From positions 1-64,000 of the forward strand of contig CAWGSK010000011.1 in NCBI GenBank assembly GCA_963825055.1: a stretch of 64,000 nucleotides of DNA. Reading direction: 5' to 3'. This document shows, piece after piece, positions 2,167 through 42,121 of this stretch. The notes under the pieces were generated by a model that saw only the letters and a list, made by a program, of their open reading frames with translations, did not search any database and had not been told where the DNA came from. The translations under genes and the position numbers were made by a program. Within the stretch, counting starts at the first letter, position 1, and every line of letters begins with the position of its first letter. Origin of the DNA: an uncultured Gemmatimonadales bacterium. GTDB taxonomy: Bacteria > Gemmatimonadota > Gemmatimonadetes > Gemmatimonadales > GWC2-71-9.

Positions 2167-2300
2167 CAGGCGCTGAAAGCCGCCCAGCGCTGCGGCCCCA
2201 ACCTCCTTGCGGCGGGCTGGGGCCCGTGCATACTCAGCGGAAGTCAGACAATTCGCTGCGGGCGAGGAGTCGCTGGCAGCCTAAGCGCAGGACGTTAGGG
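2161..2300 (+). repeat. attC site, family A
   Basis: GCCAAAC...GTTAGGG ends; core GTGCATACTCAGCGGAAGTCAGACAATTCGCTGCGGGCGAGGAGTCGCTGGCAGCCTAAGCGC. Confidence 0.85.
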
Positions 2301-2324
2301 CGCCTTGACTGGAGCTGCCCATAG

Positions 2325-2744
2325 ATGCCACGGCCTCCCTGGACGGAGCGAGCTCTTGTCGGCGCCCTGGGAGGCGCCGCGCTCAGCCTGCTGCTCCTCG
2401 CCGTTGGCATCTTGCGGATAGCCGTGGTCCTTCTCGCTGGTATCCCCGTTCGCAACGGCTTGCCTGGAATCGGTGCCACGATTATCGGCGCAGGCGTCTA
2501 TTGCTTGGGGTTTATCATGGCTGGATTGCTAGTCGGATCCCTCTGGCCCTTGCGACGCCATCTGTTGGGGTCTCTCTGTCTGGGTTACCTGGCAGCGGCA
2601 ATCGTCACCACGGCCTGCTTGTGGTTGATCCGCCAATCTGATGGTCCCAGCGACCCGGACACCACCGTCCTAACGCTGATAATCGCCACTGTCCTCTTCG
2701 GTTCTGTGGCAGGTTGGCATATCTGGCGGTGGGATCGTCCATGA
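2325..2744 (+). CDS. hypothetical membrane protein (cassette gene)
   Basis: About 4 hydrophobic segments; GGAG upstream; directly after attC. Confidence 0.7.
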   Translation: MPRPPWTERALVGALGGAALSLLLLAVGILRIAVVLLAGIPVRNGLPGIGATIIGAGVYCLGFIMAGLLVGSLWPLRRHLLGSLCLGYLAAAIVTTACLWLIRQSDGPSDPDTTVLTLIIATVLFGSVAGWHIWRWDRP

Positions 2745-2775
2745 TGCTTCAGACTCGGCTTCGTGGGTCTCACAC

Positions 2776-3048
2776 ATGAAAGCTGCTGCTCTGGTGACAT
2801 TTGTGCTGTTAGGACTGATTGAGTTCTGGGTGGGCAAGCGGACATTCCGGTTCCTTCAGTATAAGGGCCCTAGCCGGATGCGAGCGAACAAAACGCTTAC
2901 CCACCTCGCGTTCGAGCATTATCTCCCCGAAGGTCAACGCTGGCTGGACGGGCTCCGCTTGGTCATGGTTCTATGGACCCTCTCGTTCTTTCCAGCGTGC
3001 TGGGTCCTGATCCTCGCAGCGCTTGCGCCGGCCTACATGCTGCTGTGA
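2776..3048 (+). CDS. small hypothetical membrane protein (cassette gene)
   Basis: Two hydrophobic segments; ends inside the left arm of the next attC. Confidence 0.55.
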   Translation: MKAAALVTFVLLGLIEFWVGKRTFRFLQYKGPSRMRANKTLTHLAFEHYLPEGQRWLDGLRLVMVLWTLSFFPACWVLILAALAPAYMLL

Positions 3049-3168
3049 AGCTGCTGTCTCCTGCCGACACGGCAGGCGGTGCCACCTCGGCCGTGCATGC
3101 CATAGGGAAGTCATTGATTTTACCCGCTGCGGCGGTTCGCGCCGCAGCTTAAGCGCAGGACGTTAGGC
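3031..3168 (+). repeat. attC site, family B
   Basis: Degenerate GCCTAC left box; GCCACCTCGGCCGTGCATGCCATAGGGAAGT core; GCAGCTTAAGCGCAGGACGTTAGGC right end. Confidence 0.8.
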
Positions 3169-3177
3169 AGCATACAC

Positions 3178-3903
3178 GTGCGCTATCGCGTGCTCACCGC
3201 CCTTAGCTTCGCAACGGCCGTCGTCTGCGCGGGTCAGCAGGCCACGGCCCAAGTCCCCACGCCAGGCAACGGATACCCGTTTGGAGGCTGGCAATGGGAC
3301 GGCCGGCCCCAGTTTACGCACGCCCTGGTCCTCGTTATCCAACAATCAACAGGTCGACTGAGGTACGCAGCGACCGTCTATGGCGGGCTTCCGACTTGCG
3401 GAAAGCCCCCCATCGCGGATAGCACGTTTCTTTCACGGGGAATAGACTTCCTGCGCGCCGTCGGCTGGAGCAGCCCATACCCGGGTCAGCAACGAGTGGC
3501 GCGCTACGCCATGGAGTTTGTGAGAGTTGACGCGTTTGGCGGAGATCCCTCTGCCTTCGTCATCTTCCACCAAGACGGAGGTCTCGTGTACGCAGGATCA
3601 CGCATGTGGATGGGGCATGGTGACCGCTATTATCCTAGCCTCAACATTGATCCCTGGGATCTCCAAATGACCGATAGCCTGGCACCACGGCTGCCCGAAT
3701 CGGTGCTGACCAGCCAGGCGTTGTCTCGACTCCCTGCAAACTCTGGCCCGTCGCTTGAATGTTGTTCACAGCCTCGCGACCAAGCCCTATTCACTCACGG
3801 CCTTCATGCACAACAAGGAAGGGCAGCCTCCGCTGCGCAGATGGAGATTCGGTTCTGCTTTTGGTTCACCGCGGAACCTGCCGCTAAAACGCATGCTGGC
3901 TAA
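3178..3903 (+). CDS. secreted hypothetical protein (cassette gene, possible 3' frameshift)
   Basis: Signal-peptide-like N-terminus; stop TAA lies within the GGCTAAC box of the next attC. Confidence 0.65.
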   Translation: MRYRVLTALSFATAVVCAGQQATAQVPTPGNGYPFGGWQWDGRPQFTHALVLVIQQSTGRLRYAATVYGGLPTCGKPPIADSTFLSRGIDFLRAVGWSSPYPGQQRVARYAMEFVRVDAFGGDPSAFVIFHQDGGLVYAGSRMWMGHGDRYYPSLNIDPWDLQMTDSLAPRLPESVLTSQALSRLPANSGPSLECCSQPRDQALFTHGLHAQQGRAASAAQMEIRFCFWFTAEPAAKTHAG

Positions 3904-4038
3904 CAAGCGCTTAAAGCCGCCCAGCGGCCCGGGCCTCGGCCTGCTTGCGGCGGGCGTCTGGCGGTGCATACTCAGAGGAAGTTGGGCAATTCGCTGCGGG
4001 CGAGGAGTCGCTGGCAGCTTAATCGCAGGACGTTAGAC
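3898..4038 (+). repeat. attC site, family A
   Basis: GGCTAAC-aagc-GCTTAAAGC ... GCTTAATCGC-aggac-GTTAGAC. Confidence 0.9.
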
Positions 4039-4057
4039 CGACAGGAGGCGAGTCAAC

Positions 4058-4576
4058 GTGCAGGTCCGGTATGCCTGTCTCCGCTTCAGCATGTTTCTGG
4101 CCCTCGCCACGCGTGTGCCTGTCCCATGCCAGGCACAGGGCCCGGCCCCATTTCTCGGCATTGCGGCAGGCCCCAGCTCCTATGATCTCGGCGGGACGGG
4201 CACAGCGCCCGTCCTGGCCCTGGGTGTCGGGATCCCACTAGCAGGTCCGCTTCTGATTGAGCCCGGCGTTACGCTGCTACGTTATAAACCGGCTTTGGGT
4301 ACTGAGATCAATCACATCTTTCCGGAAGTCAGCCTCCAAGGCCAGGCTCACCTCGGGCGCTACTATCCCTTCCTCGGGGTGGGAGGAGGCCGGAGCCTGA
4401 TCGCGACCGGGCCTCAACCCCGTCACAACGCATGGACTCTCCATGCTGCCGGAGGCCTGCGAGTAACCTTCTCCAGCGCTTGGGGGATGCAGGGAGAGCT
4501 AAGGGTGCGTGCCGTTGATCCATTCCATGGTACGACGGCGGATTTCACCCTGGGGGTCACCCGACGGCTTCGCTAA
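4058..4576 (+). CDS. outer-membrane beta-barrel-like protein (cassette gene)
   Basis: Signal peptide; alternating beta-strand pattern (YPFLGVGGG, AAGGLRV, DFTLGVTRR); AGGAGG RBS. Confidence 0.7.
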   Translation: MQVRYACLRFSMFLALATRVPVPCQAQGPAPFLGIAAGPSSYDLGGTGTAPVLALGVGIPLAGPLLIEPGVTLLRYKPALGTEINHIFPEVSLQGQAHLGRYYPFLGVGGGRSLIATGPQPRHNAWTLHAAGGLRVTFSSAWGMQGELRVRAVDPFHGTTADFTLGVTRRLR

Positions 4577-4582
4577 CCGTCG

Positions 4583-4723
4583 GTCTCACAAGCGCTCGAA
4601 GCCGCCGGCGCCTGCGGGCGCCGGGCAGGCGGTGCCACCTCGGCCGCCGAGCATGGCATAAGGAAGTTATTAATTGCATTTGCTGCGGGGTTCGCGCCGC
4701 AGCTTGAGCGCAGGACGTTCGGC
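4583..4723 (+). repeat. attC site, family B
   Basis: GTCTCAC-aagcGCTCGAAGC ... GCAGCTTGAGCGCAGGACGTTCGGC. Confidence 0.85.
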
Positions 4724-4754
4724 TGTGTGCCGAGGCCGACTTGGGGATCCATTT

Positions 4755-5123
4755 ATGCGACGTCTCTCTGCCTGCCTCCTTCTCCTTGCTGCACTCACCG
4801 CCTCCAGGCTGGTGGCCCAGACTGGGGGAAGGACTATTATGCGCGGCGGGAGTCTCCTTTGGACCGACCGTGGAATGGCACGACATTCTCAGGGCAAGGG
4901 CTTACTTATGCCACGTGGGGTAAAGATTCGGCGATCCCTGGCCCTCGACCTTGAGGCGTGGCTTTCCCACGTCGGGAAGACGGCCGCTATCTTCGACTGC
5001 TACCGCGGCGTGGCTCAGTACCCTATCTCGGACCTACCACGGTGCTGTCAGTCGAGCCGGTGGTCGAACTCCGAGAGGGACCTACCTCCTCGCACATGCG
5101 CTAGCACTTTGGCCCCACTCTGA
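4755..5123 (+). pseudogene. probable decayed secreted-protein cassette gene
   Basis: Clean signal peptide MRRLSACLLLLAALTASRLVAQ, then no convincing continuous frame up to the next attC. Confidence 0.4.
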
Positions 5124-5309
5124 ATTGGTTCCTGCAGCGCCAGGACGCTTCTCCTGCCCTAGGGTTTGGGGCGCGAGCAGGGATGACCTTCCGGATCGGA
5201 ACACATGTGCCTCTTCTGGTTTCACTAGATGGCTTCGGTTGGCTTCGCGCTGGTGATGATGCCCCGAGATGGATGATCCCGTGACCATGCTAGGGAAGGG
5301 TCTAGCGCT

Positions 5310-5475
5310 GTCTAACAAGTGCTTGAAGGCGTCCAGCGCCCCTGGCCTCGGTCTCCTTGCGGCAGCCCCCGGCGCCGACCTGCGTGCCATTTTGGCCGCC
5401 GTGCATGCCTTAAGGAGGTCGGTAATTTCATCCGCTGCGACACGTCGCTGGCAGCCTAAGCGCAGGGCGTTAGAC
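5310..5475 (+). repeat. attC site, chimeric family A/B
   Basis: GTCTAAC with a family-A left arm, then the family-B GGCCGCCGTGCATGCC core, ending GTTAGAC. 166 bp versus about 140 for the others. Confidence 0.8.
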
Positions 5476-5491
5476 CACACACGGAGGTCCC

Positions 5492-6421
5492 GTGCCAGAT
5501 CTGCTCGATCGATTCCGAGGCGCCCTCCTGGGCCTGGCAGTCGGCGACGCCATTGGAACGACCCTCGAGTTCGAACCCCGCGGCTCCTTTGAGCCCATCA
5601 CTGACATGGTCGGCGGTGGACCTTTCGGCCTGGCACCTGGACAGTGGACCGATGATACCTCGATGGCGCTCTGCCTGGCGGCGAGTCTGATCGACTGCAA
5701 CGGTTTCAATGCTCGCGACCAAATGGAGCGTTATTGCCGCTGGCGAGACGATGGATACATGAGCAGCACAGGCACATGCTTCGATATTGGTAATACGATT
5801 GCCTCCGCGCTGCGACGATACGAGGCGACGGGCAATCCCGTCGCGGGGAGCAGTGATCCCCGAAGCGCCGGTAACGGCTCTCTCATGCGGCTAGCGCCAG
5901 TGGTTCTCTTCTACTACCCGGATCGCGCCAGCATTACCCGCTACGCCGCTGACAGTTCCCGCACGACGCATGCTGCCGACGAGGCGGTAGAGGCCTGCCG
6001 GATATTTGCGCAACTCCTGGCATCAGCCCTCGATGGCCGGGACAAATCTTTCGTGCTCTCCGCTGCGGACGGCTCCGAAGTCTCAGAGCGGTTGGATGCA
6101 ATCACCTCCGTCGCCTACCGCGACTACACATCCCACCAGATTCGGGGAAGCGGGTACGTCGTTGATTCCCTGGAGGCGGCGCTGTGGTGCTTCCTCCGAG
6201 GTCGCACCTTTCGTGAGTCTGTGCTCATGGCAGCCAATCTTGGAGATGATGCCGACACCACCGCCGCGGTGTGTGGCCAACTCGCCGGCGCTTACCACGG
6301 CCTGTCAGGCATACCCACTTCATGGCTCGACACGCTGGCTCTACGCGATGACCTTATCACACTTGCAGGGCAACTACTCCGGACCGGAGATCGCCCTGCA
6401 GAGCCGTCGTCACCTCAGTAG
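5492..6421 (+). CDS. ADP-ribosylglycohydrolase family protein (DraG/ARH)
   Basis: GDAIG, WTDDT, GNGSLMR and GDDADT motifs; GGAGG RBS. Confidence 0.93.
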   Translation: MPDLLDRFRGALLGLAVGDAIGTTLEFEPRGSFEPITDMVGGGPFGLAPGQWTDDTSMALCLAASLIDCNGFNARDQMERYCRWRDDGYMSSTGTCFDIGNTIASALRRYEATGNPVAGSSDPRSAGNGSLMRLAPVVLFYYPDRASITRYAADSSRTTHAADEAVEACRIFAQLLASALDGRDKSFVLSAADGSEVSERLDAITSVAYRDYTSHQIRGSGYVVDSLEAALWCFLRGRTFRESVLMAANLGDDADTTAAVCGQLAGAYHGLSGIPTSWLDTLALRDDLITLAGQLLRTGDRPAEPSSPQ

Positions 6422-6469
6422 TTGCCGACTCACGAGGAGCGCCCGACTATTGATAGGTTGTTTCCTGCG

Positions 6470-6610
6470 CCCCAACAGGCGCTTGACGCCATCCGGCGCG
6501 CCAAGTCTTAGCCTCCTTGCGCCGGGTCCCTGGCGGTGCATACTCAAAGGAAGTCAGACAATTCGCTGCGGGCGGGTACTCGCTGGCAGCTTAAGCGCGG
6601 AACGTTTGGC
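6470..6610 (+). repeat. attC site, family A
   Basis: CCCCAAC...GTTTGGC with the conserved GTGCATACTC...GGAAGTCAGACAATTCGCTGCGGGC core. Confidence 0.87.
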
Positions 6611-6612
6611 AG

Positions 6613-7074
6613 ATGCAACCCTTCCCACAGCCTGTCGGGAGACGCCATGACCCCGGACAAGCGAAGGACCTGGTCGCCCGAATCGCCACGGATGTCTGGA
6701 ATCAAGGCGATGTGGCGGTTTGCGATGAGATCATGCACCCGGATGCGAGATATCACGGGCCACACATGCCGGGTGGAGAGGGAGATCGCGAGACCTGGAA
6801 ACGCGCCATTCAGATGTATCGAGCGGGATTCCCTGACTCTCGTGTAACCTTCAACGCGATGTACACAGCGGGGGACACGGTTGTTGGGCGGTGGATGGCG
6901 ACCGCCACCCACGAAGGTGCTCTCCCAGGCGTGGAGCCCACGGGCCGCCCAATCACCATCACCGGCATTACCATCTACGCCCTGCGCGACGGGAAGATCG
7001 CCGAGGCCTGGGAGGAGCTCGACCTACTGGGAATGTGGCGGCAGCTTGGCGTAGTTACGCTCCCGGAAGCCTAA
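6613..7074 (+). CDS. SnoaL-like ester cyclase (probable 1-bp indel near start)
   Basis: VWNQGD, AGFPD, THEG..PTGRPITITG..DGKIAEAW pattern. The RBS-associated ATG at 6647 is out of frame with the body. Confidence 0.85.
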   Translation: MQPFPQPVGRRHDPGQAKDLVARIATDVWNQGDVAVCDEIMHPDARYHGPHMPGGEGDRETWKRAIQMYRAGFPDSRVTFNAMYTAGDTVVGRWMATATHEGALPGVEPTGRPITITGITIYALRDGKIAEAWEELDLLGMWRQLGVVTLPEA

Positions 7075-7106
7075 CCGGGGCTGGCGCCCCGGTGGACATG
7101 GTATCT

Positions 7107-7245
7107 GCCTGACGTGCGCTTGAAGCTGTCGGCGCCTGCGGGCGCCGGCTGGCGGTGCTGACTCGGCCGCCGTGCATGCCATAAGGAAGCCGTAATTGTA
7201 TCCGCTCTGGCCGCTCGCTGGCAGCTTGAGCGCAGGACGTTAGCT
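7107..7245 (+). repeat. attC site, family B
   Basis: GCCTGAC-gtgcGCTTGAAGC ... GCAGCTTGAGCGCAGGACGTTAGCT. Confidence 0.88.
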
Positions 7246-7273
7246 GGCTTCCCACCCCCCGGGCCGCTCGGAC

Positions 7274-7303
7274 TTGTCTTGGTACATACACCGTACATAT
7301 ACT
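7274..7303 (+). promoter_or_regulatory. putative TA promoter/operator
   Basis: TTGTCT-N18-TATACT ending 6 bp before the brnT ATG, overlapped by direct repeats GTACATA at 7282 and 7293. Confidence 0.6.
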
Positions 7304-7309
7304 TGAATC

Positions 7310-7597
7310 ATGAGCGACCTCCGGATCGAATGGGATCCGCGGAAAGCCGCGGCCAACCGCCGCAAGCACGGCGTCTCGTTCGAGGAGGCGGCCACCGTCT
7401 TTGCCGATGAGGCCGCCCTGCTCATCGCGGATCCCGAGCACTCCGACCAGGAAGATCGGTTCGTGCTGCTGGGCCTCAGTGCCACGTTGCGGGTTCTGGT
7501 CGTGGTCCACTGCTATCGCGGAACCGAGGACGTCATCCGGCTTATCTCAGCCCGGAGGGCGACCCGCAGAGAACGCGGACACTACCCGGGAGGGTAA
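7310..7597 (+). CDS. brnT: BrnT family ribonuclease toxin
   Basis: EWDPRKAAANRRKHGVSFEEA, EDRFVLLG, IRLISARRA. Confidence 0.93.
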   Translation: MSDLRIEWDPRKAAANRRKHGVSFEEAATVFADEAALLIADPEHSDQEDRFVLLGLSATLRVLVVVHCYRGTEDVIRLISARRATRRERGHYPGG

Positions 7598-7601
7598 CGA
7601 T

Positions 7602-7832
7602 ATGAAACCAGAATACGATTTTTCCAAGGGAAAGAAGAATCCCTATGCCAAGCGGCTCAAGCGACCCGTCACCATCCGCCTGGATGAGCCCACCATTGCC
7701 TACTTCAAAGGACTGGCGGCGGAGACGGAGATCCCCTACCAGACGTTGATCAACCTGTATCTCAGGGATTGTGCGGCCTCCCAGAAGCGGCCAGCCCTCA
7801 AATGGCGAGGGCCGAAGGCCGGCGCCAGCTAA
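7602..7832 (+). CDS. brnA: BrnA family antitoxin
   Basis: MKPEYDFSKG..KRPVTIRLD..YFK..IPYQTLINLYLR; directly follows brnT; stop lies inside AGCTAAC. Confidence 0.9.
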   Translation: MKPEYDFSKGKKNPYAKRLKRPVTIRLDEPTIAYFKGLAAETEIPYQTLINLYLRDCAASQKRPALKWRGPKAGAS

Positions 7833-7966
7833 CAAGCCCTTAAGGCCGTCCGGCGCCCCTGGCCTCGGCCTCCTTGCGGCGAGCCCCTGCCGGTGCATAC
7901 TCAGTGGAAGTCGGACAATTCGCTGCGGGCAAGGAGTCGCCGCAGCTCAAGCGCAGGGCGTCAGGC
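7827..7966 (+). repeat. attC site, family A
   Basis: AGCTAAC...GTCAGGC with the conserved core. Confidence 0.88.
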
Positions 7967-7994
7967 GGCGGCCCCCCATCCGGTGAGGGTGAAC

Positions 7995-8327
7995 ATGGCA
8001 GAGATCAGGCAGTCCACCGCGTCGTTCGGCCTGGCCTTTGCCGCGCTGGCGACGGTGCTTCCCGTCTACGCACTCTTGCGCTGGTTTTGGGCGTGGCACC
8101 AGCCTCATGCGGACTTCCGCGACGCAGTGACGGTGTTTGACACCGGCTTCCCTTTCGGGCTGCGCGGATCGAGTATCACCTGGGCTTGCGTCGTCTCTGC
8201 CGCGGCGGGTGTGGTGGCAGCTGGCTTGATCGTACGACGTACTCGTGGTGCGACCCGTGCCGTTGCCTGCACGATCATGGTGAGCGCTGCGGCGCTGCTG
8301 ATGTGGAACTTGTGGACCATGATGTAG
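7995..8327 (+). CDS. hypothetical membrane protein (cassette gene)
   Basis: Three hydrophobic segments; GAGGG RBS. Confidence 0.65.
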   Translation: MAEIRQSTASFGLAFAALATVLPVYALLRWFWAWHQPHADFRDAVTVFDTGFPFGLRGSSITWACVVSAAAGVVAAGLIVRRTRGATRAVACTIMVSAAALLMWNLWTMM

Positions 8328-8348
8328 GACCTGGGGCAGTCGCACCTT

Positions 8349-8446
8349 GGCTGACATGGTTTTGAAGCTGCCACCGCGGCCGGGCGTTTTGCGCATTGCT
8401 CATGAGCCGGACTGGCGGCGGCGCAGTGTATAGCCATCCGTTGGGC
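8349..8446 (+). repeat. attC site, unrelated shorter family
   Basis: GGCTGAC-atggTTTTGAAGCTG ... GCAGTGTATAGCCATCC-GTTGGGC. Confidence 0.65.
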
Positions 8447-8714
8447 GGGACGTGATTCCACTCTACAAAGGGGTGGTTCTGAACCGGTTTCTGCGCTACC
8501 TGGCGCCTGACCACGCGGTGGGCCGTCGCGCCCATCGTCGAGTGCAATGTGGGCTCGGCGCCATCTCACGTGGCGCGCGAGAATCAGCGCGACACGAGGT
8601 GCGGAGAACCACACAAGAACGGCGGAGACACACGGATGCCCAAAGTGACACGATCATCGCCTTCCCCCCGCTCCTGATGTTCCAACGACCAGCTCGACGC
8701 TGCAACTAAGCGTC

Positions 8715-8843
8715 GTCTAACAGGCCTGGGCCACCAACATTCCGCGGATTCTGCGGCGGGCCCCAGCCGGTGCATACTCCGAGGAAGTCAGACAATTCGC
8801 TGCGCGCGAGGAGTCGCTCGCAGCATAATCAAGAACGTCGCCC
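8715..8843 (+). repeat. degenerate attC, family A
   Basis: GTCTAAC left box and conserved core; arms eroded. Confidence 0.7.
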
Positions 8844-9369
8844 GCACTGGCCAACTAAGGACGGCCCAATGCTTCCGCTGAATTAAGTCATCGGTGAGTC
8901 GTCCTTCGGCTACGCGGTTCGTACTTCAGCTTTTCCGAAGGATTCTCGCTCTATGTCGACTGTGAAGACCAGGAGAGGTCTTCGCCGAGACGAGGACTCG
9001 CGGTCTGCATTTGGCCGCTTACATCTGAGGAGCACGAGGCTGAGGAGCCAGACACCAACCGAGGGAACATAGCTCGTCAGCCGGGCACCCCATCGCATGC
9101 CGCTCACGCTGTCGGCCATCACCTGGACCAGATCGTCGCGAGGCGTTTCGTGGAGCGTTATCCGCGACAAGGACACCGAGGAGGGTGTGATGGAAGCGAT
9201 GAATGAACCCGGCCGACTATTCCCGCCCGGTGCACGGCTGGCAACGCTCACTCGCGGTGGGTTGAGCCTCATGCTCATGGCCAGCCTCACCCCGATGGGA
9301 AGCTCGGTGGCGGCCTGGTGTATCGAGAGCTCAAGCCGTAGGAGACGAAGCCGCGGGAGCCTCTACGGG

Positions 9370-9446
9370 CCGCCTGAGCCCGGCATCCGACACTGCTTTT
9401 ACCTGCTTCGAAGTCCACGCTGCAGCTTAAGCGCCAACAGTTCGGC
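9370..9446 (+). repeat. attC right arm (left arm eroded)
   Basis: GCAGCTTAAGCGCCAACA-GTTCGGC. Confidence 0.55.
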
Positions 9447-9522
9447 GGAGATCCATTGCGGCAAGTTCTTGCCCCGCATTGGCAACTGTCACGCGCTGAC
9501 TGCTGAATAAGGCCAAGGAAGA

Positions 9523-10453: not shown

Positions 10454-10475
10454 GAGATCATCTCACCAAAGCGCC

Positions 10476-10671: not shown

Positions 10672-10813
10672 CAGAGACAGGCACTTGAAGCCGCCCCAGC
10701 GCCCGTGGCCTCGGCCTCCTTGCGGCGGGCCCCTGGCGGTGCATACTCAGGGGAAGTCAGACAATTCGCTGCGGGCGAGGAATCGCTGGCCGCCTAAGCG
10801 CAGGACGTTATGG
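10672..10813 (+). repeat. attC site, family A
   Basis: Degenerate left box; GCACTTGAAGC arm; conserved core; GTTATGG end. Confidence 0.85.
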
Positions 10814-11410: not shown

Positions 11411-11426
11411 GTGATTATGGGCCGCC

Positions 11427-11566
11427 GTCTAACAAGCGCTTGAAGCCGCCCAGCGCCCCCGGACTCGGCCTCCTTGCGGCGGGCCCCCGGCGGTGCATAC
11501 TCGGAGGAAGTCGGACAATTCGCTGCGGGCAAAGAGTGGCCGGCAGCTGAGCTCGGAACGTCAGGC
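11427..11566 (+). repeat. attC site, family A
   Basis: GTCTAAC-aagcGCTTGAAGC ... GTCAGGC. Confidence 0.88.
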
Positions 11567-12113: not shown

Positions 12114-12252
12114 GCCTGACAAGCGCGTAAGACCGCCAGCGCTCCAGGCCTCAGCCCCCTTGCGGAGTCCCGGAGCCGTGCGGACTCAGCGGACGTCAGA
12201 CAATTCGCTGCGGGCGAGGAGTCGCTGGCAGCTTAGGCGCGGAACGTTAGAT
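12114..12252 (+). repeat. attC site, family A
   Basis: GCCTGAC...GTTAGAT with a diverged conserved core. Confidence 0.85.
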
Positions 12253-13239: not shown

Positions 13240-13352
13240 TTTAGCGCAAACGCTCGCGGCACGCAAGGGGCCATCACTTCCCGCTCTGATGGGCTCAGTA
13301 TGCTCCGCCGGCGAGGTACCGGACGGGGCACGCGGGCGGGCTGCGGGTGGAT

Positions 13353-13448
13353 TTGCGGCAGGCCCACGTCGGTGCATACTCAGAGGAAGTCAGACAATTC
13401 GCTGCGGGCGGGAAGTCGCCGGGGCAGCATGAACCGAGGACGTGAGAC
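13353..13448 (+). repeat. partial attC, family A (left arm lost)
   Basis: TTGCGG..GTGCATACTCAGAGGAAGTCAGACAATTCGCTGCGGGC..GGACGTGAGAC. Confidence 0.75.
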
Positions 13449-14079: not shown

Positions 14080-14290
14080 GCCTGACAACGGGTTGCAGGC
14101 CTCCAGGCCCCAACTGGCTGGTGTCAGCGCGGCCGCCGTGCATGCCAAGGCGTCGGTGGGGTGTTCCTGCCTGGATAGCCCCAGTCCCACCGCGGTAAAT
14201 CGTTGAGGGGTTGTCGTTTATCGAACCAGCAGGTCCGGTGACCGGCCCACCCTGATAAGCGCCTGCGGCCGCCCAGCGCCCCCAGCCTCA
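14080..14290 (+). repeat. two attC left-arm remnants (family B at 14080-14150, family A at about 14250-14290)
   Basis: GCCTGAC..GGCCGCCGTGCATGCCA and CCTGATAAGCGCCTGCGGCCGCCCAGCGCCCC. Confidence 0.55.
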
Positions 14291-18662: not shown

Positions 18663-18715
18663 CGGCGCCGCCAGCCCCCTTGGCGGCGGGCGGGGGCCAG
18701 TGCATACTGGGCGGA
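18663..18715 (+). repeat. attC family A internal fragment
   Basis: CCCCTTGGCGGCGGGCGGGGGCCAGTGCATACT. Confidence 0.6.
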
Positions 18716-27723: not shown

Positions 27724-28329
27724 ATGACCTTGCTTGATTCCTGGATGCCGGTGTATGACGTGAGCGCCAGGTACTCCCTGCCGATTGCAGCCTCACAAGG
27801 CCAGGTCTACCATGCACTCCTCCAGTCCGACTTCAGTCGCCCGTTCCTCGTGCGGTCCCTGATGGGACTGCGACTCCTTCCCGGCCTGCTTCGCTCACCC
27901 AAAGCCACCTGGCGGCGACTCTCCCGCGCAGACCGCCCGACCCGGGCGTCCCTCCAGGACTTCGATCGATCCGACTTCGTTCGGCTTGAAGAGGCCGCGC
28001 CCCGGGAGATTGTTCTCGGGATTACGGGGCGCTTCTGGACGCTCTCCGCCCAGGTCACGGCCATCCCGCCGGATCGCTTCCGGGACCCGCTGCCCCCGGG
28101 CCTGGCCCAGGCAGCCTGGAACTTTGAGGTTGCGCCCACCCCCGGGGGTTCCTCGCTGGCCACGGAAACCCGCGTCCGATGCGCGGACCGGCAAACACTT
28201 CGGCAGTTCCGCCGCTATTGGTGGCTGGTCGCGCCGGGGAGCGGCCTGATCCGGCACGCCATCCTGCGTCAGGTTCGACAGGAAGCGATGATCAGCGTCG
28301 AAGGCCGGCGCCCGCGAACAGGCGCGTGA
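27724..28329 (+). CDS. hypothetical protein (DUF2867-like)
   Basis: EIVLGITGRFW, AAWNF, TETRVRC, FRRYW..GSGLIR. Confidence 0.7.
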   Translation: MTLLDSWMPVYDVSARYSLPIAASQGQVYHALLQSDFSRPFLVRSLMGLRLLPGLLRSPKATWRRLSRADRPTRASLQDFDRSDFVRLEEAAPREIVLGITGRFWTLSAQVTAIPPDRFRDPLPPGLAQAAWNFEVAPTPGGSSLATETRVRCADRQTLRQFRRYWWLVAPGSGLIRHAILRQVRQEAMISVEGRRPRTGA

Positions 28330-28403
28330 GGCCGCCCGGCATCTCCGGCCTCGACTCTTTGCAGTGGGCTCCTGACGGTGCATACTCCGTGAACGTCGGG
28401 CAA
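28313..28403 (+). repeat. attC family A remnant (right arm lost)
   Basis: CGCGAACAGGCGCGTGAGGCCGCCC..TTGCAG..GGTGCATACTC..GTCGGGCAA. Confidence 0.7.
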
Positions 28404-28498
28404 GCCTCGACGGGCCGCGGGGCGCTGGTGGCACAGGCGGACCGAAGCGTTCAGCGGCCGCACCGTGCAGGTGATGGTCACCCCGGAGGAGGCTTCCA

Positions 28499-28657: not shown

Positions 28658-28775
28658 GCACGGTACCCGACATTTCGTTGCGGACAAAGGGTCAGTGGCA
28701 GTGTGAGCGCAGGACCTCAGCTCATCGACTGCCAGCCTGTCAGCCACTCCTGAAATACGAGAGGACCGACTCCGG

Positions 28776-36098: not shown

Positions 36099-37589
36099 AT
36101 GAGCCCGTCCCTGGCGATCCCCGGCCCCTTGATCGAGTCGCCCTCCAGCCCCAATCGTGGCCTGCGCAAGGCCCCCACAGGAATCTCGGGGCTCGATCAG
36201 GTCACGAGAGGGGGGCTCCCTCAAGGTCGCCCCACGCTGGTCTGCGGCGGCCCCGGCTGCGGCAAGACGGCGCTGGCCATGGAATTCGTCTGTCGCGGCG
36301 CCGTCGAGTTCGGGGAGCCCGGTACGTTCGTGTCGTTCGAGGAGAGCTGCACGGACATCGAAAAGAACTTCGCGTCCACCTCGTTCGGGATGAGCGAAGC
36401 GCTTGCCCGGGGTACGCTCCATCTCGAATCCGTGCTGATCTCCCGCGAACAGAGCATCGAGACCGGGGACTTCACACTGGACGGCCTCCTGGCCCGGCTG
36501 GAGTGGTGGGTCGCGAGGAATGACACGCGTCGGCTCGTGCTGGACAGCATCGACGCCCTCTTCGCCCGTTTCTCGGACAGCGCGAGCCTCCGCTTCGAAA
36601 TTTCCCGCCTCTTCTCCTGGATCAGGGAGCGGGGGATCACCGCGATCATCACGGCCGAGCGCGGCCAGGGGGAGCTCACCCGTCGCGGGCTGGAAGAGTA
36701 CGCGTCCGACTGCGTGATCCTCCTGGACCATCGTATCAGCGAGCAGATCTCGAAGCGTCGCATCCGCATCGTCAAGTATCGCGGCACCGGACACGGTGCC
36801 GACGAGTATCCGTTCCTCATCAGCGCCACGGGCATTTCCGTACTCCCCGTCACGGCCCTGGGCCTGGAGAGCGTCGCTCCCACCAGCTTCATGCCGACTG
36901 GTATCCAGGGGCTGGACGACATGCTCGCCGGGTGCGGGCTCTACCGGGGCAGCACCGTGCTGATCTCGGGTTCCGCCGGCACCGGCAAAAGCACCCTGGG
37001 CGCCCGGTTCGCGGAGCACGTCAGTGAGAGCGGTGGACGCGCCCTGATCATCGCCTTCGAAGAGTCGGCCAGCCAGGTCGTACGCAACATGCGCTCCGTC
37101 GGAATCGACCTCGAGAAGCACGTGCAGAGTGGGGCCCTGGCCATCGAGGCGATGCGGCCCAGCGCCTTCGGCCTCGAAGAGCACTTGATCCGGGTCCACA
37201 TGCTGGTGGATGCTTTCCGCCCGGACGCGGTGATCCTGGATCCCATCACCAGCTTCACGTCCATCGGGGGCCGGACGGAGGTCAAGGCCATGATCATCCG
37301 GCTCCTGGATCACCTGAAGGGGCTGGGGATCACCATCGTCATGCCCAGCCTGACTTCGGGCGGCAATTCGGACGAAGAGACGGACACCGAAGTGTCCTCG
37401 ATCGTGGATGCGTGGATCATTGTCCAGTACGTCCGTGAGCGGGGGACACGCCGGCGCCAGATCTATGTGCACAAGGCCAGGGGCATCGGTCACTCGCAGG
37501 CTGTTGGTGAGTTGCGGTTCTCCCCGTCGGGCATCTCGGTCACGCCGCTCGCCCCGGGCCATGACACGGTGGGAGGCGATCATGCGTGA
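36099..37589 (+). CDS. kaiC: KaiC family ATPase
   Basis: Two RecA-like domains (GGPGCGKT, GSAGTGKST), FEE motifs, EEYASDC and VSSIVD at the phosphosite position. Confidence 0.92.
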   Translation: MSPSLAIPGPLIESPSSPNRGLRKAPTGISGLDQVTRGGLPQGRPTLVCGGPGCGKTALAMEFVCRGAVEFGEPGTFVSFEESCTDIEKNFASTSFGMSEALARGTLHLESVLISREQSIETGDFTLDGLLARLEWWVARNDTRRLVLDSIDALFARFSDSASLRFEISRLFSWIRERGITAIITAERGQGELTRRGLEEYASDCVILLDHRISEQISKRRIRIVKYRGTGHGADEYPFLISATGISVLPVTALGLESVAPTSFMPTGIQGLDDMLAGCGLYRGSTVLISGSAGTGKSTLGARFAEHVSESGGRALIIAFEESASQVVRNMRSVGIDLEKHVQSGALAIEAMRPSAFGLEEHLIRVHMLVDAFRPDAVILDPITSFTSIGGRTEVKAMIIRLLDHLKGLGITIVMPSLTSGGNSDEETDTEVSSIVDAWIIVQYVRERGTRRRQIYVHKARGIGHSQAVGELRFSPSGISVTPLAPGHDTVGGDHA

Positions 37590-37944
37590 CGGGATCCCGC
37601 ATGAGGCAATCGCGTCCGGGACGCGGCAGCGCCCTCAACGGGGTCCGGTCGGCGACGTGGCGGCGATGTGGGAGTTGCGTCTTTTCGTGGCGGGCAGCGG
37701 CGCGGAAGTGCGACGGGTCCATGAGGCCCTGGGAAGCATATGCCGGGAGCACCTCCCGGGCCGGCACCGCATCGCGCTGGTCGATATCCTTCAGGAGCCT
37801 GAACAGGCCGATGCCTTCGACATCGTCGCGGTCCCGACGCTCATTCGGCAGTCGCCGCTCCCGGTGCGCCGGGTCATCGGCGACCTCTCGCTGATCCGGA
37901 AGGTCGTGCTCGGGCTCGGCATTCCTGTTCGGCAGGAGCCGTGA
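37582..37944 (+). CDS. kaiB: KaiB family protein
   Basis: LRLFVAG..ICREHL..VDI..PTL..PLPVRRVIGDLS. Confidence 0.9.
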   Translation: MRDGIPHEAIASGTRQRPQRGPVGDVAAMWELRLFVAGSGAEVRRVHEALGSICREHLPGRHRIALVDILQEPEQADAFDIVAVPTLIRQSPLPVRRVIGDLSLIRKVVLGLGIPVRQEP

Positions 37945-37945
37945 T

Positions 37946-40900
37946 ATGGCCCCAGACACGCCAGGCGGATCCCACCTGAAAGCGCGGGTGGGGGGCGGCA
38001 CCCCTCCCCAGATGGCCAACCTGGTCCGCAATGTGTCCGAGGGGATCGTGGTCGTGGACAGCGATGGCGTGGTGCTGTTTGCCAATCCCGCCGCCGAGAC
38101 TTTGCTGCGCAGGGCACCCGGCGATGCGTTCGGGTTCAACCTGGGCTACCCCCTGGCAGGTGATGAGCCCACCATCATCACCCTGCGCCCACCGGGGACA
38201 GACGCCGCCATCATAGAGATGCGCGCGGCCGAGACGCCATGGGATGACGGAACGGCCTTCGTGGTCAACCTCCACGACATCACGGAACGGACGCGCGGCG
38301 ATGCGGAGCAGCGACAGCTCCAGAAGCGGACCGATCGCCTGAACCAGGTGCTGCGGGCCATCGCCAGCGTCGCCCAGGTCATCATCCGGGAATCGGACCC
38401 GGGCCGGCTCATCCGCGCGACCTGCGAACGGCTGGTGGAGGATGGCGGTTTCCGTGCGGCCTGGCTCGTCCTCACGAACGAGGACGGGAGCCTGGTCGAC
38501 ACGGCCCAATCGCCGCTGGCGGATGGCCCCTTCCCCACAGTGACCGACGCGTTCGCCCGGGGCGTCGTGCCCGAATGTTGCCGGCGTGCCAAACGGGAGG
38601 GTCGCGTCGTCCGTTTCGAACCCGCCCGAGACTGCGAAGCCACGCTCTGTGCGGGCCTGGCCCCGACGGAACACGCCCTCGTGGCCTGCCTGACTCACGG
38701 CACTCGCACGTTCGGTTACATCACCGTCGTGTTCGATTCGCCCGAGCATGAAGACGGGGAAGCGGAGCGTCTTCTGCACACGGTCGCGATCGACCTCGGC
38801 TTCGCTCTCCACAGCGACGAGCAAGCCCTGGCCCGGGAAAAGACACAGCGGCTGCTGGAGGAGACCGAGCGCGTCGCCGACGTGGGTGGGTGGGAATGGG
38901 ACCTCACCACCGACCGGTTCACCGTCAGCCCCGAGTGGCGTCGCATTCACGGCTGGGGCGAGGGGGCGATCGAGTTCTCCGACGTGCTCTCCCTCTGTCT
39001 TCCAGCGGACCAGGAGCGGTGGGCCGCGGGCCTGGAGTCACTCCGCCGTGGCCACGCGACCCTCGAGCTCGAACATCGCATCATCAAGCGGGACAACGGG
39101 GAGACCAGGGTCCTGTGCTCGAGAAGCGGTTCGGTCGAGGAAAGGGCCAACGGGCAACGGGTGGTACGGGGGATCGCCCAGGATATCACGGCCGCGCATC
39201 AGGCGACGGAGCGGATCCGCTTCCAGGCCCGCCTGCTGGCATCCGTCGGTGAGGCCATTATCGTGAACGACCCCAAGGGGAGAATCCTCTACTGGAATCA
39301 GGCGGCGCAGAGGCTGTATGGCTGGCCTGCCGAGGCCGTCCTGGGCCGCAACGTTGTCGACGTGATACGGGAACCTGGCGCTGAGGTCCCGGAGCGACTC
39401 GCCGCGGGGGAGAACTGGTCCGGAGAGCTCATGATGCGGGCCAGGGACGGGCGCCGCTTTCCTGCGCTCGTCACGACCGCCCCGGTCATCGGGGAAGATG
39501 GCAAACTCGATGCGGTCATCGGGGTAGTATCCGACCTCTCCGAGCGAACACGTGCGGCGAATGAGCTGCTCGAGACATCCAGGAAACTGGCCGCAGCCGT
39601 TGTCGCCGGGCACGTTGGACTGTGGCAGTGGAACCTCGAGACCGAGGAGGTCACCTTTTCAGCGGAGTGGAAGCGACAGATCGGGTATGCAGAAGACGAG
39701 ATCAAGGATGATTTCGAGGAGTGGCGGAGTCGGGTGCATCCGGAGGACCTGGACCAGGCGCTCGAGCGCATCAGAATATTCATCGCGGGCGGGCAGGAAG
39801 AACTTCGATTGGAGTTTCGGTTCCGGCACAAGAACGGCTCGTATCGGTCGATCCTGGCCCAGGCGGACGTCATCGAGGGGGAGGAAGGCCGCCCGGTCCG
39901 TCTGATGGTCGGCGCCCACGTGGACATTACCGACCTCCGTGAGGCCGAAGCGCATCAGCAGAACATTGAAGCCCAGCTCCAACAGGCCCAGAAGATGGAA
40001 TCCGTCGGTCGTCTGGCCGGAGGCGTGGCGCATGACTTCAATAACGTCCTGGCGGTGATTCTGGGCATCTCGGAGATCTCGCTGGGGAACATCGAACCGT
40101 CGGATCCGCTGCGCGCCGATTTCCAGGAGATCCATCAAGCCGCCACCCGAGCCGCGGCCCTGACTCGTCAGTTGCTCGCGTTTGCCCGCAAGCAGACCAT
40201 CGATCCCCGGGTGATCGATCTCAACGAGACGGTGGGGGGCATGGTCAAGATGCTGAGCCGTCTCGTTGGCGAGGATGTGGAACTGGTCTGGAAGCCCGCC
40301 TATCAGCTCTGGCCAGTGAAGGTGGACCCCGCTCAGGTGGACCAGATTCTCGCCAATCTGACGGTGAACGCGCGTGACGCCATCCAGGAGGGGGATGAGG
40401 GTAACGGCAGGATCAGCCTCCAGACGGCAAACATCGAGGTCGATCAGGCGTTCTGTGACCACAACGCCGGCCTCCGGCCCGGGCAGTACGTCGTGTTGTC
40501 GGTGAGCGACAACGGCGTGGGCATGGCCAATGCGACCGTCGCCAGGGCTTTCGAACCCTTCTTCACGACCAAAGCCACCGGGACGGGGACCGGCCTCGGG
40601 CTGGCCACGGTATACGGCATCGTGAAACAGAACGCAGGCTCCGTGTACATTTACAGCGTGGTCGGCGAAGGAACGACGATCCGGATCTACCTGCCGCGCC
40701 TGGTGGGCGCGGAGGCGGAGGGCGGGACTCTGGGCGAAGCCCTGGAGCTGGTCCAGGGAACCGAGACCCTGCTGGTCGTCGAGGACGACGCTCCCGTGCG
40801 ACGGGTGATGTCGCGAATCCTGGAGCGGCTGGGGTACACCCTGTTGCTGGCGGAAACGGGGGAGGAGGCATTGGACCTCTTCCGGGAGCGTGGAGAGACC

Positions 40901-41173
40901 ATCGATCTGCTGATGACGGATGTCGTGATGCCCGGCATGAACGGTCGCGATCTGGTGGAGGCGGTTCGCGCCCTGCGCCCGGGGGTGCAATGCCTCTTTA
41001 TCTCGGGCTACACCCACGACGTCATCTCCAACCGGGGCGTGCTGGGAGCCGGGGTACACTTCCTCGAAAAACCCTTCACCACGGAAGGCCTGGCCAGCAC
41101 GGTACGACGGGTGCTGGATGAGCGAGGGGCTGGGCAGGTCCAGCGGCGTCCACCCGGAAGGGGGCAGGAATAG
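37946..41173 (+). CDS. PAS/GAF multi-sensor hybrid histidine kinase
   Basis: Several PAS repeats, a GAF-like segment, GGVAHDFNN, ATPase boxes and a receiver domain. Confidence 0.93.
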   Translation: MAPDTPGGSHLKARVGGGTPPQMANLVRNVSEGIVVVDSDGVVLFANPAAETLLRRAPGDAFGFNLGYPLAGDEPTIITLRPPGTDAAIIEMRAAETPWDDGTAFVVNLHDITERTRGDAEQRQLQKRTDRLNQVLRAIASVAQVIIRESDPGRLIRATCERLVEDGGFRAAWLVLTNEDGSLVDTAQSPLADGPFPTVTDAFARGVVPECCRRAKREGRVVRFEPARDCEATLCAGLAPTEHALVACLTHGTRTFGYITVVFDSPEHEDGEAERLLHTVAIDLGFALHSDEQALAREKTQRLLEETERVADVGGWEWDLTTDRFTVSPEWRRIHGWGEGAIEFSDVLSLCLPADQERWAAGLESLRRGHATLELEHRIIKRDNGETRVLCSRSGSVEERANGQRVVRGIAQDITAAHQATERIRFQARLLASVGEAIIVNDPKGRILYWNQAAQRLYGWPAEAVLGRNVVDVIREPGAEVPERLAAGENWSGELMMRARDGRRFPALVTTAPVIGEDGKLDAVIGVVSDLSERTRAANELLETSRKLAAAVVAGHVGLWQWNLETEEVTFSAEWKRQIGYAEDEIKDDFEEWRSRVHPEDLDQALERIRIFIAGGQEELRLEFRFRHKNGSYRSILAQADVIEGEEGRPVRLMVGAHVDITDLREAEAHQQNIEAQLQQAQKMESVGRLAGGVAHDFNNVLAVILGISEISLGNIEPSDPLRADFQEIHQAATRAAALTRQLLAFARKQTIDPRVIDLNETVGGMVKMLSRLVGEDVELVWKPAYQLWPVKVDPAQVDQILANLTVNARDAIQEGDEGNGRISLQTANIEVDQAFCDHNAGLRPGQYVVLSVSDNGVGMANATVARAFEPFFTTKATGTGTGLGLATVYGIVKQNAGSVYIYSVVGEGTTIRIYLPRLVGAEAEGGTLGEALELVQGTETLLVVEDDAPVRRVMSRILERLGYTLLLAETGEEALDLFRERGETIDLLMTDVVMPGMNGRDLVEAVRALRPGVQCLFISGYTHDVISNRGVLGAGVHFLEKPFTTEGLASTVRRVLDERGAGQVQRRPPGRGQE

Positions 41174-41220
41174 GCGGCAGGCACCGGCCCGTCCGATTGG
41201 TCCCAGGATATTTGCCCGGG

Positions 41221-41432
41221 ATGGAGTCCCTGCTTTCCGCCTCCAGACCGCGATCGCTGACCGCTACGGCATCGAGCGCGAACTCGCGCGACAGATCGCC
41301 TCTGCGCTGGACAATGCCCACTACCCGCCGTGATCCACCCGGACATCAAGTTCGAGAACATCCTGCTCCATGAGGGCGACGCGTTCCTGACCGGCTTCGG
41401 CATCGTACTGGCGGTCCAGGAGGCCGGCGGCG
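41221..41432 (+). pseudogene. internally deleted Ser/Thr kinase remnant
   Basis: RLQTAIADRYGIEREL joined to ARQIASALD.AH, then IHPDIKFENILLHEG..TGFGI; frameshifted. Confidence 0.75.
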
Positions 41433-41460
41433 CCCCCACGGACGATCTAACGTTCCCCGA

Positions 41461-41925
41461 ATGTGCAAGGAGTCGCGAGTGAAGCCCTCAATTCCCTCGG
41501 CGAAGGCCTATGCCAGCGAGCCGGTCCGTTACCCGCCGCTCGTAGTAGTGGATATCGTGGATGAGGCAGCTGCAACCACCGATCACTACCGGAACCAGGT
41601 CCTCAGCCAGGTGAATACGAGCTGCCTGCGCCTGGGAGTGCTGGCCGGAGACTATCCCTGGCACCAGCATCCCGGCTCCGATGAGCTTTTTCTCGTGGTG
41701 GAGGGCCGGCTGGAGATTTCGCTGGCCGACGGTCGGACCCTGAGCCTCGGTCCATGGCAGAGTGTCGTGGTGCCGGCGGGAATGGTCCATCGCACTCGAG
41801 GTGTCGGACGCACCGTCAACCTGTGCTTCGAAGCCGCGGCCGCCGAGACGGTCTTCATTGACCATCCACCCCCGGCCGCGCCAGCCGACGGGCCCGGCGC
41901 CGGGCCACCAGGCAGCGCTTCCTGA
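41461..41925 (+). CDS. cupin domain protein
   Basis: YPWHQHPGSDELFLVVEG..PAGMVHRT. Confidence 0.85.
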   Translation: MCKESRVKPSIPSAKAYASEPVRYPPLVVVDIVDEAAATTDHYRNQVLSQVNTSCLRLGVLAGDYPWHQHPGSDELFLVVEGRLEISLADGRTLSLGPWQSVVVPAGMVHRTRGVGRTVNLCFEAAAAETVFIDHPPPAAPADGPGAGPPGSAS

Positions 41926-42087
41926 GAGCATGATCCGGGCGGCAACCGCCTGCGTTTCACTATCGTCGTGCCCGCAGAATCCGAGGGTGGTACCCGGGGG
42001 CTGACCGCCAGCCAGGGCGGCACCTGTCTCGCCACGGCAAGGCGTGCCTCCCCCTGGCAACCCCGCCTGCAGTCGACGGTTAGAGGC

Positions 42088-42121
42088 CCCCTCTTGCGGC
42101 GGGCGGAGGCCGATGCATAAT
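42088..42121 (+). repeat. attC family A internal fragment
   Basis: CTCTTGCGGCGGGCGGAGGCCGATGCATAAT. Confidence 0.5.

What the first reader, a model, noticed from the sequence alone, without database searches (positions are those of the whole stretch)
2207..42121. Family-A attC carries a conserved sigma70-like promoter that outlives the recombination arms
Seen: family-A copies keep TTGCGG-N16-CATACT at a fixed spacing (for example 2207-2234, 10720, 11474). Degenerate remnants that have lost one or both arms keep this same segment: 13353-13380 (N16), 18680-18708 (TTGGCG-N17-CATACT), 28359-28386 (TTGCAG-N16-CATACT) and 42094-42121 (TTGCGG-N16-CATAAT, closer to consensus). Each lies just upstream of a + strand gene. 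Established: the central attC region is normally variable, and distal cassettes are usually poorly expressed from Pc. Inference: each attC supplies a promoter for the next cassette, giving Pc-independent expression, and old sites are being domesticated as promoters.
Basis: partly seen in the sequence, partly recalled or inferred. Interest (0 to 1): 0.78.

Follow-up and report, generated by a model that had tools for sequence, protein, structure and literature searches.

The report
Host promoter inside integron recombination sites
In this uncultured bacterium, one family of the DNA hairpins that separate swappable integron gene cassettes contains an exact copy of a promoter-like signal the host also places in front of a dozen of its own genes, so these sites probably switch on the next cassette, although no transcript data exist.

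Summary
The motif is at every stated coordinate. It lies in the loop of family-A attC sites of a cassette array with no integrase found. New result: the same box, CTTGCG-N17-CATACT, occurs 12 times outside attC sites, intergenic, with unrelated spacers (expected 0.2). In 10 of 11 distinct cases an ATG ORF starts within 60 nt. It is a strict promoter-like class, enriched in this genome but not in 60 relatives, unlike the host's 17-nt housekeeping type. Six window copies and one on contig C8 match it exactly. Other attC families of related genomes hold top-strand promoter-like pairs, specific to spacer and motif order. Overstated: family B and other sites lack the box; the four 'remnants' all differ at class-invariant positions; two other remnants kept arms and lost the box. 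No RNA data. This scan noted attC-loop promoters before in other genomes. Verdict: probably real attC-borne promoters; reading sigma unknown; domestication unproven.

The parts
2161..2300 (+). family-A attC; exact class box CTTGCG-N17-CATACT at 2206-2234; next ORF 2325-2744
3898..4038 (+). family-A attC; exact box 3944-3972; next ORF 4058-4576
6470..6610 (+). family-A attC; exact box 6516-6544; next ORF 6613-7074 (SnoaL-like)
7827..7966 (+). family-A attC; exact box 7873-7901; next ORF from 7995
8705..8843 (+). degenerate family-A attC, left arm broken, -35 changed to CTGCGG; no clear gene downstream
10672..10813 (+). family-A attC; exact box 10719-10747; sits between two copies of a ~60-nt segment, so its own cassette is only a short duplicate of the next cassette's start
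11427..11566 (+). family-A attC; exact box 11473-11501; next ORF 11612-12100 (DUF2059)
12114..12252 (+). family-A attC with both arms but destroyed -10 (CGGACT, 15-nt spacer); faces a minus-strand HTH_20/AHSA1 gene pair that has its own promoter-like site at 13266 (-)
13352..13448 (+). family-A remnant without left arm; box TTTGCG-N17-CATACT (one change from the class); next ORF 13489-14019 (RibD_C)
14251..14290 (+). family-A left arm only, ends before the box
18679..18708 (+). box with 1-nt insertion (TTGGCG-N17-CATACT) inside a truncated glyoxalase-family ORF, 27 nt before ORF 18736-19872; descent from family A weak
28313..28455 (+). diverged full-length family-A site; box TTTGCA-N17-CATACT; next ORF from 28499
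28667..28720 (+). family-A right half only, no box
42059..42174 (+). heavily diverged family-A-like site; box CTTGCG-N17-CATAAT at 42093-42121; next ORF 42206-42619 (weak Big_1)
3046..3167 (+). family-B attC (partial), no class box
4584..4722 (+). family-B attC, no class box
5311..5474 (+). A/B hybrid attC: family-A 5' part with the -35, family-B 3' part, no -10
7108..7243 (+). family-B attC, no class box; followed by a BrnT/BrnA cassette with its own promoter-like site at 7274

Best explanation
The window holds a cluster of integron cassettes without a detected integrase. In double-stranded DNA, RNA polymerase would start about 6-8 nt after CATACT, read the 3' half of the site and enter the next cassette 85-110 nt downstream, sometimes carrying on through neighbouring box-less family-B sites. 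The site therefore travels with one cassette and expresses whichever cassette follows it, without an integron Pc. Shown: sequence, anatomy, the dispersed class, its spacing and start-codon association, higher conservation of the hexamers. The strict two-box consensus suggests one of the non-primary sigma-70-family factors (four RpoD/RpoS-like paralogues and about 20 other Sigma70_r2 matches are present); I put that at about 60% given promoter function, the primary sigma at 40%.
For: Outside attC regions TTGCG stands at the 16-nt spacer before 12 of 336 CATACT, expected 0.21; all other spacers from 10 to 25 give 6 together; 11 distinct sites, Poisson about 1e-15. All 12 are intergenic and point at a same-strand gene; their spacers and flanks show no family-A homology (spacer identity 3-9 of 16). 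An ATG ORF of 75+ codons starts within 60 nt at 10 of 11 (24% of 1500 random intergenic positions), at 24-36 nt in 6 and at 5-9 nt in 3. The C before TTG, not part of the search, is present in 11 of 11 (44 of 100 in housekeeping-like sites). All 17 intergenic sites within one change of the box vary only at the third -10 base. Six window copies and the C8 copy are exact. Hexamers are more conserved than arms and spacer; the -10 is less paired than the site average in most bottom-strand folds. The one family-A copy found in another genome (G421) has its -35 broken by an insertion, and G421 has 0 class sites. In 21 other attC families the loop holds top-strand promoter-like pairs under the host matrix (Fisher p about 1e-6, bottom strand 0.24); 0 of 40 column-permuted matrices reach the signal and it peaks at a 17-nt spacer; merged into 7 groups, 1 of 150 permuted matrices reaches it.
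Against: No transcript evidence. Under the housekeeping matrix the box scores 7.3 bits, reached by about 6% of coding 140-mers and by 2-5 of 40 shuffles. Family-A copies share one ancestor, so their agreement is one event. Other loop segments (CGCTGCGGGC) are as conserved as the hexamers, and CTCCTTGC can pair with GCGAGGAG, though its key T pairs with G in 8 of 11 rows, a mismatch on the bottom strand. Substitutions inside hexamers of five families were not biased towards matrix-tolerated bases (22 substitutions, p 0.50). The replicate on 12 short-attC families is weak (p 0.012 against 0.37; only one family significant alone). Large related families 13, 10 and family B show no promoter inside the loop. 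'Intergenic' rests on my own gene calls, which miss atypical genes.
Confidence: 0.72

Rival explanations
1. The box is an inherited piece of the attC loop, kept by recent common ancestry and hairpin pairing; the match to the host class is chance and nothing is transcribed from it.
For: Copies share an ancestor; equally conserved non-hexamer segments exist; CTTGC pairs with GCRAG in family A and in family 11; family B shares the GTGCAT block without a promoter.
Against: The motif was defined from the attC and then found 11 times independently at exactly this spacing; an 11-12 base two-box match inside a 140-nt element by chance is very unlikely; the -10 is poorly paired and the -35 T:G pair is a mismatch on the recombining strand; top-strand, 17-nt-specific signal in other families.
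Confidence: 0.12
2. CTTGCG-N17-CAnACT is a two-part site for a DNA-binding regulator or nucleoid protein rather than a promoter; in the attC it would control folding or recombination.
For: The consensus is unusually strict, and enriched in this genome only although an orthologue of the one sigma paralogue checked is found in most relatives.
Against: It is not palindromic, has -35/-10-like halves with A and T at the sigma-70 key positions, is always oriented towards a gene, and 3 of 11 sites have an ATG 6-8 nt after the second box, the geometry of a leaderless transcript.
Confidence: 0.08
3. The dispersed sites are not a native class but the last stage of the first reader's domestication: old family-A sites spread with cassettes, of which only the two hexamers survive.
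For: The class is confined to the genome that has family A; several downstream genes have atypical codon use and no Pfam family; two sites lie near the C5 and C8 arrays.
Against: No residual homology in spacer or flanks at any of the 12 sites, whereas the recognisable remnants keep spacer similarity and have damaged hexamers, the reverse of the expected order.
Confidence: 0.08

Closest known systems
[quoted passage not shown] DAT722 (Michael and Labbate 2010, PMC2945992; passages and section 29 read)
   Same: A sigma-70-type promoter overlapping an attC site raises transcript about 40-fold on the downstream cassette, independent of Pc.
   Different: One junction-specific promoter formed across the site; here both boxes lie wholly inside the loop of a repeated attC family, so they act on any following cassette, and they match a distinct host class.
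Promoter-carrying gene-less cassettes of Vibrionaceae superintegrons (Blanco et al. 2024, PMC11014356; passages read)
   Same: Mobile units that supply promoters inside arrays; some start sites were mapped within the attC of cassette F2.
   Different: There the promoters lie in the cassette body and the attC starts were read as possibly spurious; here the promoter is a conserved part of the recombination site.
Cassette-borne promoters (cmlA, qacE, qnrVC1, toxin-antitoxin cassettes) and group IIC-attC intron promoters (review PMC8876359, passages read; PMC3001079, search listing only)
   Same: Pc-independent expression of distal cassettes.
   Different: They sit in a cassette's 5' leader and serve its own gene, or come with an inserted intron; the review passages list none as a fixed part of an attC family.
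CALIN, cluster of attC sites lacking an integrase (Cury et al. 2016, PMC4889954; passages read)
   Same: Two or more attC sites, no intI found; degenerate attC sites proposed as a step towards stabilising genes.
   Different: [quoted passage not shown]
RpoS-type promoters (-10 CTATACT; PMC5650638, one passage read)
   Same: The -10 shares A-A-C-T (CATACT against TATACT).
   Different: C replaces T at -12, and this class has a strict -35 and spacer, whereas RpoS promoters are described as lacking a -35 consensus.

Membership tests
integron attC site | complementary R'' and R' cores (RYYYAAC / GTTRRRY) | tested here: met
   Paired in the intact copies; A-T at the core in 11 of 11 rows, other core pairs in 6-10 of 11
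integron attC site | L''/L' boxes pairing with extrahelical bases, unpaired spacer, variable terminal loop | tested here: met
   Bottom-strand fold of the C8 copy and family-B copies gives the canonical stem; several window copies misfold because their arms have decayed
integron attC site | co-oriented sites separating single ORFs with short leaders | tested here: met
integron attC site | recombined by an integron integrase | not testable with these tools
   Indirect: 3 of 5 genomes carrying attC sites with the same arms have an integrase over the TIGR02249 cut-off
complete integron | intI with attI and Pc next to the array | tested here: not met
   0 matches over the cut-off in G000; genome 87% complete, array begins 2.1 kb from a contig end behind a kinase gene
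CALIN | two or more attC sites, no neighbouring intI | tested here: met
   subject to the incomplete assembly
host housekeeping sigma-70 promoter | TTG(A/C)CN, 17-nt spacer, (T/C)AnnTT | tested here: inconclusive
   Scores 7.3 bits, 65th percentile of upstream regions; spacer 16 makes up 10% of the model
host class CTTGCG-N17-CAnACT (defined here) | exact two boxes at fixed spacing | tested here: met
   6 of 13 window sites examined are exact; the other 7, including all four quoted remnants, deviate
RpoS-type promoter | -10 CTATACT without a conserved -35 | tested here: not met
   C at -12 and an invariant -35
any promoter | transcription start 6-8 nt after the -10 | not testable with these tools
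   No reads could be laid; leaderless ATGs at 6-8 nt in 3 of 11 class sites are indirect

The most novel reading that the evidence does not exclude
Family-A attC sites wire whatever cassette follows them into the regulon of a host alternative sigma factor that otherwise serves mostly exported and envelope proteins, so an integrase-less array is switched on conditionally from its own recombination sites; across Gemmatimonadales, attC families have repeatedly built promoters in several registers, some using the L'' or L' box itself as a promoter half.
Probability: 0.4. Interest if true: 0.82.

Novelty: new variant of a known kind. Interest (0 to 1): 0.66.

Why it matters
The standard integron model has promoterless cassettes expressed from Pc, with distal cassettes silent (PMC8946536, passages), and whether CALIN genes are expressed is stated as unknown (PMC4889954). 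A promoter that is a fixed part of the attC changes the logic: expression depends on which attC family lies upstream, not on distance from Pc, and an array can stay expressed after losing its integrase. The exact match to a strict host class gives sharp predictions (start sites, two hexamers, candidate sigma factors), and also yields a promoter class for a phylum with almost no promoter literature (one search found one marginal paper).

Tried and rejected
RNA evidence: no RNA holder was listed for 2100-12000, so no reads were laid. Family A in other genomes: an internal pattern found 0 in genome contigs; the metagenome scan gave 1 match, a chance hit in a coding region; DNA search of 60 relatives gave only 2 short weak hits; an arm pattern in 400 genomes of the phylum gave single or double hits in 25. 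One copy was found, in G421. Rfam: 0 matches in 1-45000. The generic E. coli-consensus scan does not list the box. TTGCGC-N18-CAGCTT hits use the L' box that my search pattern fixed, so I excluded the arms; the register test shows a -35 peak at 17-18 nt but a bottom-strand control peaks at 16, and CTTG can pair with CAAG, so this second register is only a lead. Direction-of-substitution test: null. Folding of the predicted mRNA with or without the left arm made no difference to pairing of the ribosome-binding region in 3 of 3 cases. Sigma assignment: the C9 paralogue has a 65-74% identical orthologue in 34 of 36 relatives, so it does not explain the lineage-specific class; none of the four paralogues reaches a named NCBIfam cut-off other than the sigma-70 superfamily. 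'Each attC has a promoter' rejected. 'CATAAT is closer to consensus' rejected for this host.
Full report
Setting. The window is G000:C11:1-64000 of a 3.5-Mb, 35-contig genome, 87% complete. Named records that share the attC arms are mostly Gemmatimonadales, so the host probably belongs there; that is an inference. From 2160 to about 13450 co-oriented repeats separate short ORFs: membrane and exported proteins of no Pfam family, an ADP-ribosylglycohydrolase, SnoaL, BrnT/BrnA, PhzF-like, DUF2059, a reversed HTH/AHSA1 pair and RibD_C. The repeats have attC cores and L boxes. No integrase reaches the TIGR02249 cut-off in G000, while 3 of 5 genomes with the same arms have one. The array is therefore best called a CALIN, subject to the incomplete assembly. 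Smaller arrays lie on C8 and C5.

Observation. All quoted boxes are present. Family A has eight array copies, the 13353 remnant and one copy on C8; family B, an A/B hybrid and three other site types share the arrays. In 11 aligned copies the hexamers diverge at 5 of 132 cells, the spacer at 24 of 176, the arms at 49 of 297 and 40 of 297. The hexamers were picked after the fact, copies are related, and another loop segment is equally conserved. The -10 is less paired than the site average in most bottom-strand ensembles; the -35 can join a CTCCTTGC/GCGAGGAG helix, but one of its T bases faces G in 8 of 11 rows, a mismatch on the strand that recombines (strand preference from PMC5027507, passages).

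Host promoters. I called 3098 genes with a simple codon model and fitted a two-box model, seeded with the recalled sigma-70 key bases, to 1509 upstream regions outside the arrays: TTG(A/C)CN, spacer 17 in 67% and 16 in 10%, (T/C)AnnTT; the antisense control did not converge on such a motif, and tRNA upstream regions show the same type. The family-A box scores 7.3 bits, the 65th percentile of upstream and 94th of coding windows; family B scores 3.7-5.7. Alone this is weak: 34 + strand hits of 7 bits or more lie in 2000-14300.

The decisive result. Searching the rest of the genome for the attC-defined box, TTGCG stands at the 16-nt spacer before 12 of 336 CATACT words, against 0.21 expected; spacers 10-25 otherwise give 6 in all. 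All 12 are intergenic by my gene calls and face a same-strand gene. One pair is a duplicated locus (11 distinct, Poisson about 1e-15) and two more look like paralogous loci by eye. Their spacers match family A at 3-9 of 16 positions and no flank aligns significantly. The preceding C, not searched for, is present in 11 of 11. All 17 intergenic sites within one change of CTTGCG-N17-CATACT vary only at the third -10 base; neighbouring spacers give 0, 1, 5 and 3 sites. An ATG ORF of at least 75 codons starts within 60 nt at 10 of 11 sites (24% of 1500 random intergenic positions), at 24-36 nt in 6 and at 5-9 nt in 3. With TAnnnT, TTGAC, TTGCC and TTGCG all prefer 17 nt; only TTGCG with CAnACT prefers 16. 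Of 14 downstream proteins scanned, 3 match TonB_C (1 over the cut-off), 1 TPR, 1 SIMPL, 1 a deacetylase/glycosyltransferase, 1 Big_1 weakly, and 7 nothing; many have signal-peptide-like starts by eye. G000 has 20 exact matches (8 in attC sites); 60 relatives have 19 together against 13 for the reversed control; with one more spacer base G000 has 0 and the relatives 32 against 21. G014, flagged unpublished, is in these samples (0 and 1 match); no claim depends on it. So this is a strict, lineage-enriched promoter-like class, and six window copies plus the C8 copy are exact members. The only family-A copy found elsewhere, in G421, has a 1-nt insertion in the -35, and G421 has no class site; this is one case.

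Which sigma. G000 has 24 Sigma70_r2 matches, among them four RpoD/RpoS-like paralogues of about 290-310 residues. The -10 resembles the RpoS word CTATACT (PMC5650638, one passage) but has C at -12 and a strict -35. The paralogue on C9 has a CATACT 28 nt before its own start but is conserved in 34 of 36 relatives.

Related attC families. I dropped one non-attC cluster and the G421 family-A copy and added family B: 21 families. With both hexamers confined to the loop, the top strand beats column shuffles (Fisher p about 1e-6; bottom 0.24; up to 30 members per family). Examples: TTGACC-17-CACTTT, TTGCNC-18-TACGTT, TTGTGC-17-YAVTCT. On up to 5 members per family, 0 of 40 column-permuted matrices reach the signal and mean z is 1.43 at spacer 17 against 0.17-0.47 at six other spacers. 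Merged by hand into 7 groups, with 3 members per family, 1 of 150 permuted matrices reaches it. In family 9 the -35 is invariant (0 of 54) while the spacer varies (39 of 153) at length 17 in 7 of 9. Against: families 13, 10 and B show nothing inside the loop; hexamer substitutions are not biased towards tolerated bases (p 0.50); 45 short sites found independently give only p 0.012 against 0.37 over 12 families, although 10 of 16 sites of about 102 nt have TAnnnT exactly 17 nt after the L'' box. None of 328 related sites carries the exact G000 class.

Remnants. An unbiased sliding profile finds six family-A-derived pieces beyond the intact copies: 13353, 18680, 28359 and 42094 with the box, 14251 and 28667 without. 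13353, 28359, 28667 and 42094 align better than all 3000 random windows, 14251 better than all but 2, 18680 only at the 0.9% level. 28359 and 42094 are diverged near-full-length sites. At 28359 the hexamers differ at 1 of 12 positions and the rest at 40 of 123 (p 0.11). All four boxes deviate at class-invariant positions, though they still score 6.7-8.7 bits under the housekeeping matrix. Domestication remains possible but unshown.

Mechanism. Shown: anatomy, class match, conservation. Inferred: polymerase starts 6-8 nt after CATACT and reads into the next cassette, whose leader is too short for a promoter of its own; exact boxes recur every one to three cassettes. Confidence 0.72.

Comparison and novelty. 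Single cases are known: a promoter bridging one attC in Vibrio sp. DAT722 (PMC2945992, section 29), start sites inside one attC (PMC11014356, passages), promoters in cassette leaders and introns (PMC8876359, passages). Reviews still describe cassettes as mostly promoterless (PMC8946536, PMC8618304, 10.1101/2022.09.11.507474; passages). Searches showed no paper describing a promoter as a conserved part of an attC family, nor this class; the library lacks most subscription papers and I read no supplements. Earlier notes of this scan report attC-loop promoters in other genomes; they are unchecked and not counted as support. What is added here is the independent within-genome test and the strict, lineage-enriched class. 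I file it as a new variant of a known kind, interest 0.66.

Noticed in passing
G000 contigs C3, C5, C6, C8, C12, C13, C15, C17: A strict promoter-like class CTTGCG-N17-CAnACT with 17 intergenic sites, mostly before exported or envelope proteins; enriched in this genome and not in 60 relatives.
   Followed up: yes
window 10611-10899: The family-A site at 10672-10813 lies between two copies of a ~60-nt segment (58 identical columns of 70), so it acts like an ORF-less promoter cassette made by duplication of the next cassette's start.
   Followed up: partly
window 13290-13325 (-): An inverted partial copy of the -10 segment (GCATACT with flanks) faces away from the 13353 box, towards the reversed HTH/AHSA1 genes.
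   Followed up: partly
window 13215-13270 (-): TTGCGT-N17-TAAAAT (11.5 bits) with a palindrome over the start of the HTH_20 gene, a likely autoregulated promoter.
   Followed up: no
window 5311-5474: Hybrid attC joining the family-A 5' part to the family-B 3' part, suggesting recombination inside the loop.
   Followed up: partly
window 18443-19872: A glyoxalase-family ORF is cut off at the 18680 box; behind it a short start that resembles a RibD_C/DHFR-type gene by eye is fused in frame to a metallo-beta-lactamase-fold ORF.
   Followed up: no
related attC families 11, 13, 10, 1 and the 90- and 102-nt families: A second register: a -35-like word 17-18 nt before the L' box CAGCTT, itself a good host -10. 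Partly explicable by pairing.
   Followed up: partly
related family 7: A 7-nt deletion in 4 of 11 members moves the -10 from 17 nt after CTGACG to 16-17 nt after TTGAAG, both in the L'' arm.
   Followed up: partly
related family 1: By eye, a GTG 7 nt after TAGAAT opens a 14-codon frame ending at the TAG of the R' core, a possible leader peptide; not tested.
   Followed up: no
G000:C9:88741-88775: An RpoD/RpoS-like sigma gene has CATACT 28 nt before its start, with GTGCCC at the -35 position.
   Followed up: partly
window 14099-14147: A family-B remnant also keeps its central segment although family B has no good promoter match (E 0.1).
   Followed up: no
window 36279-41173: KaiC, KaiB and a PAS histidine kinase in a row.
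   Followed up: no
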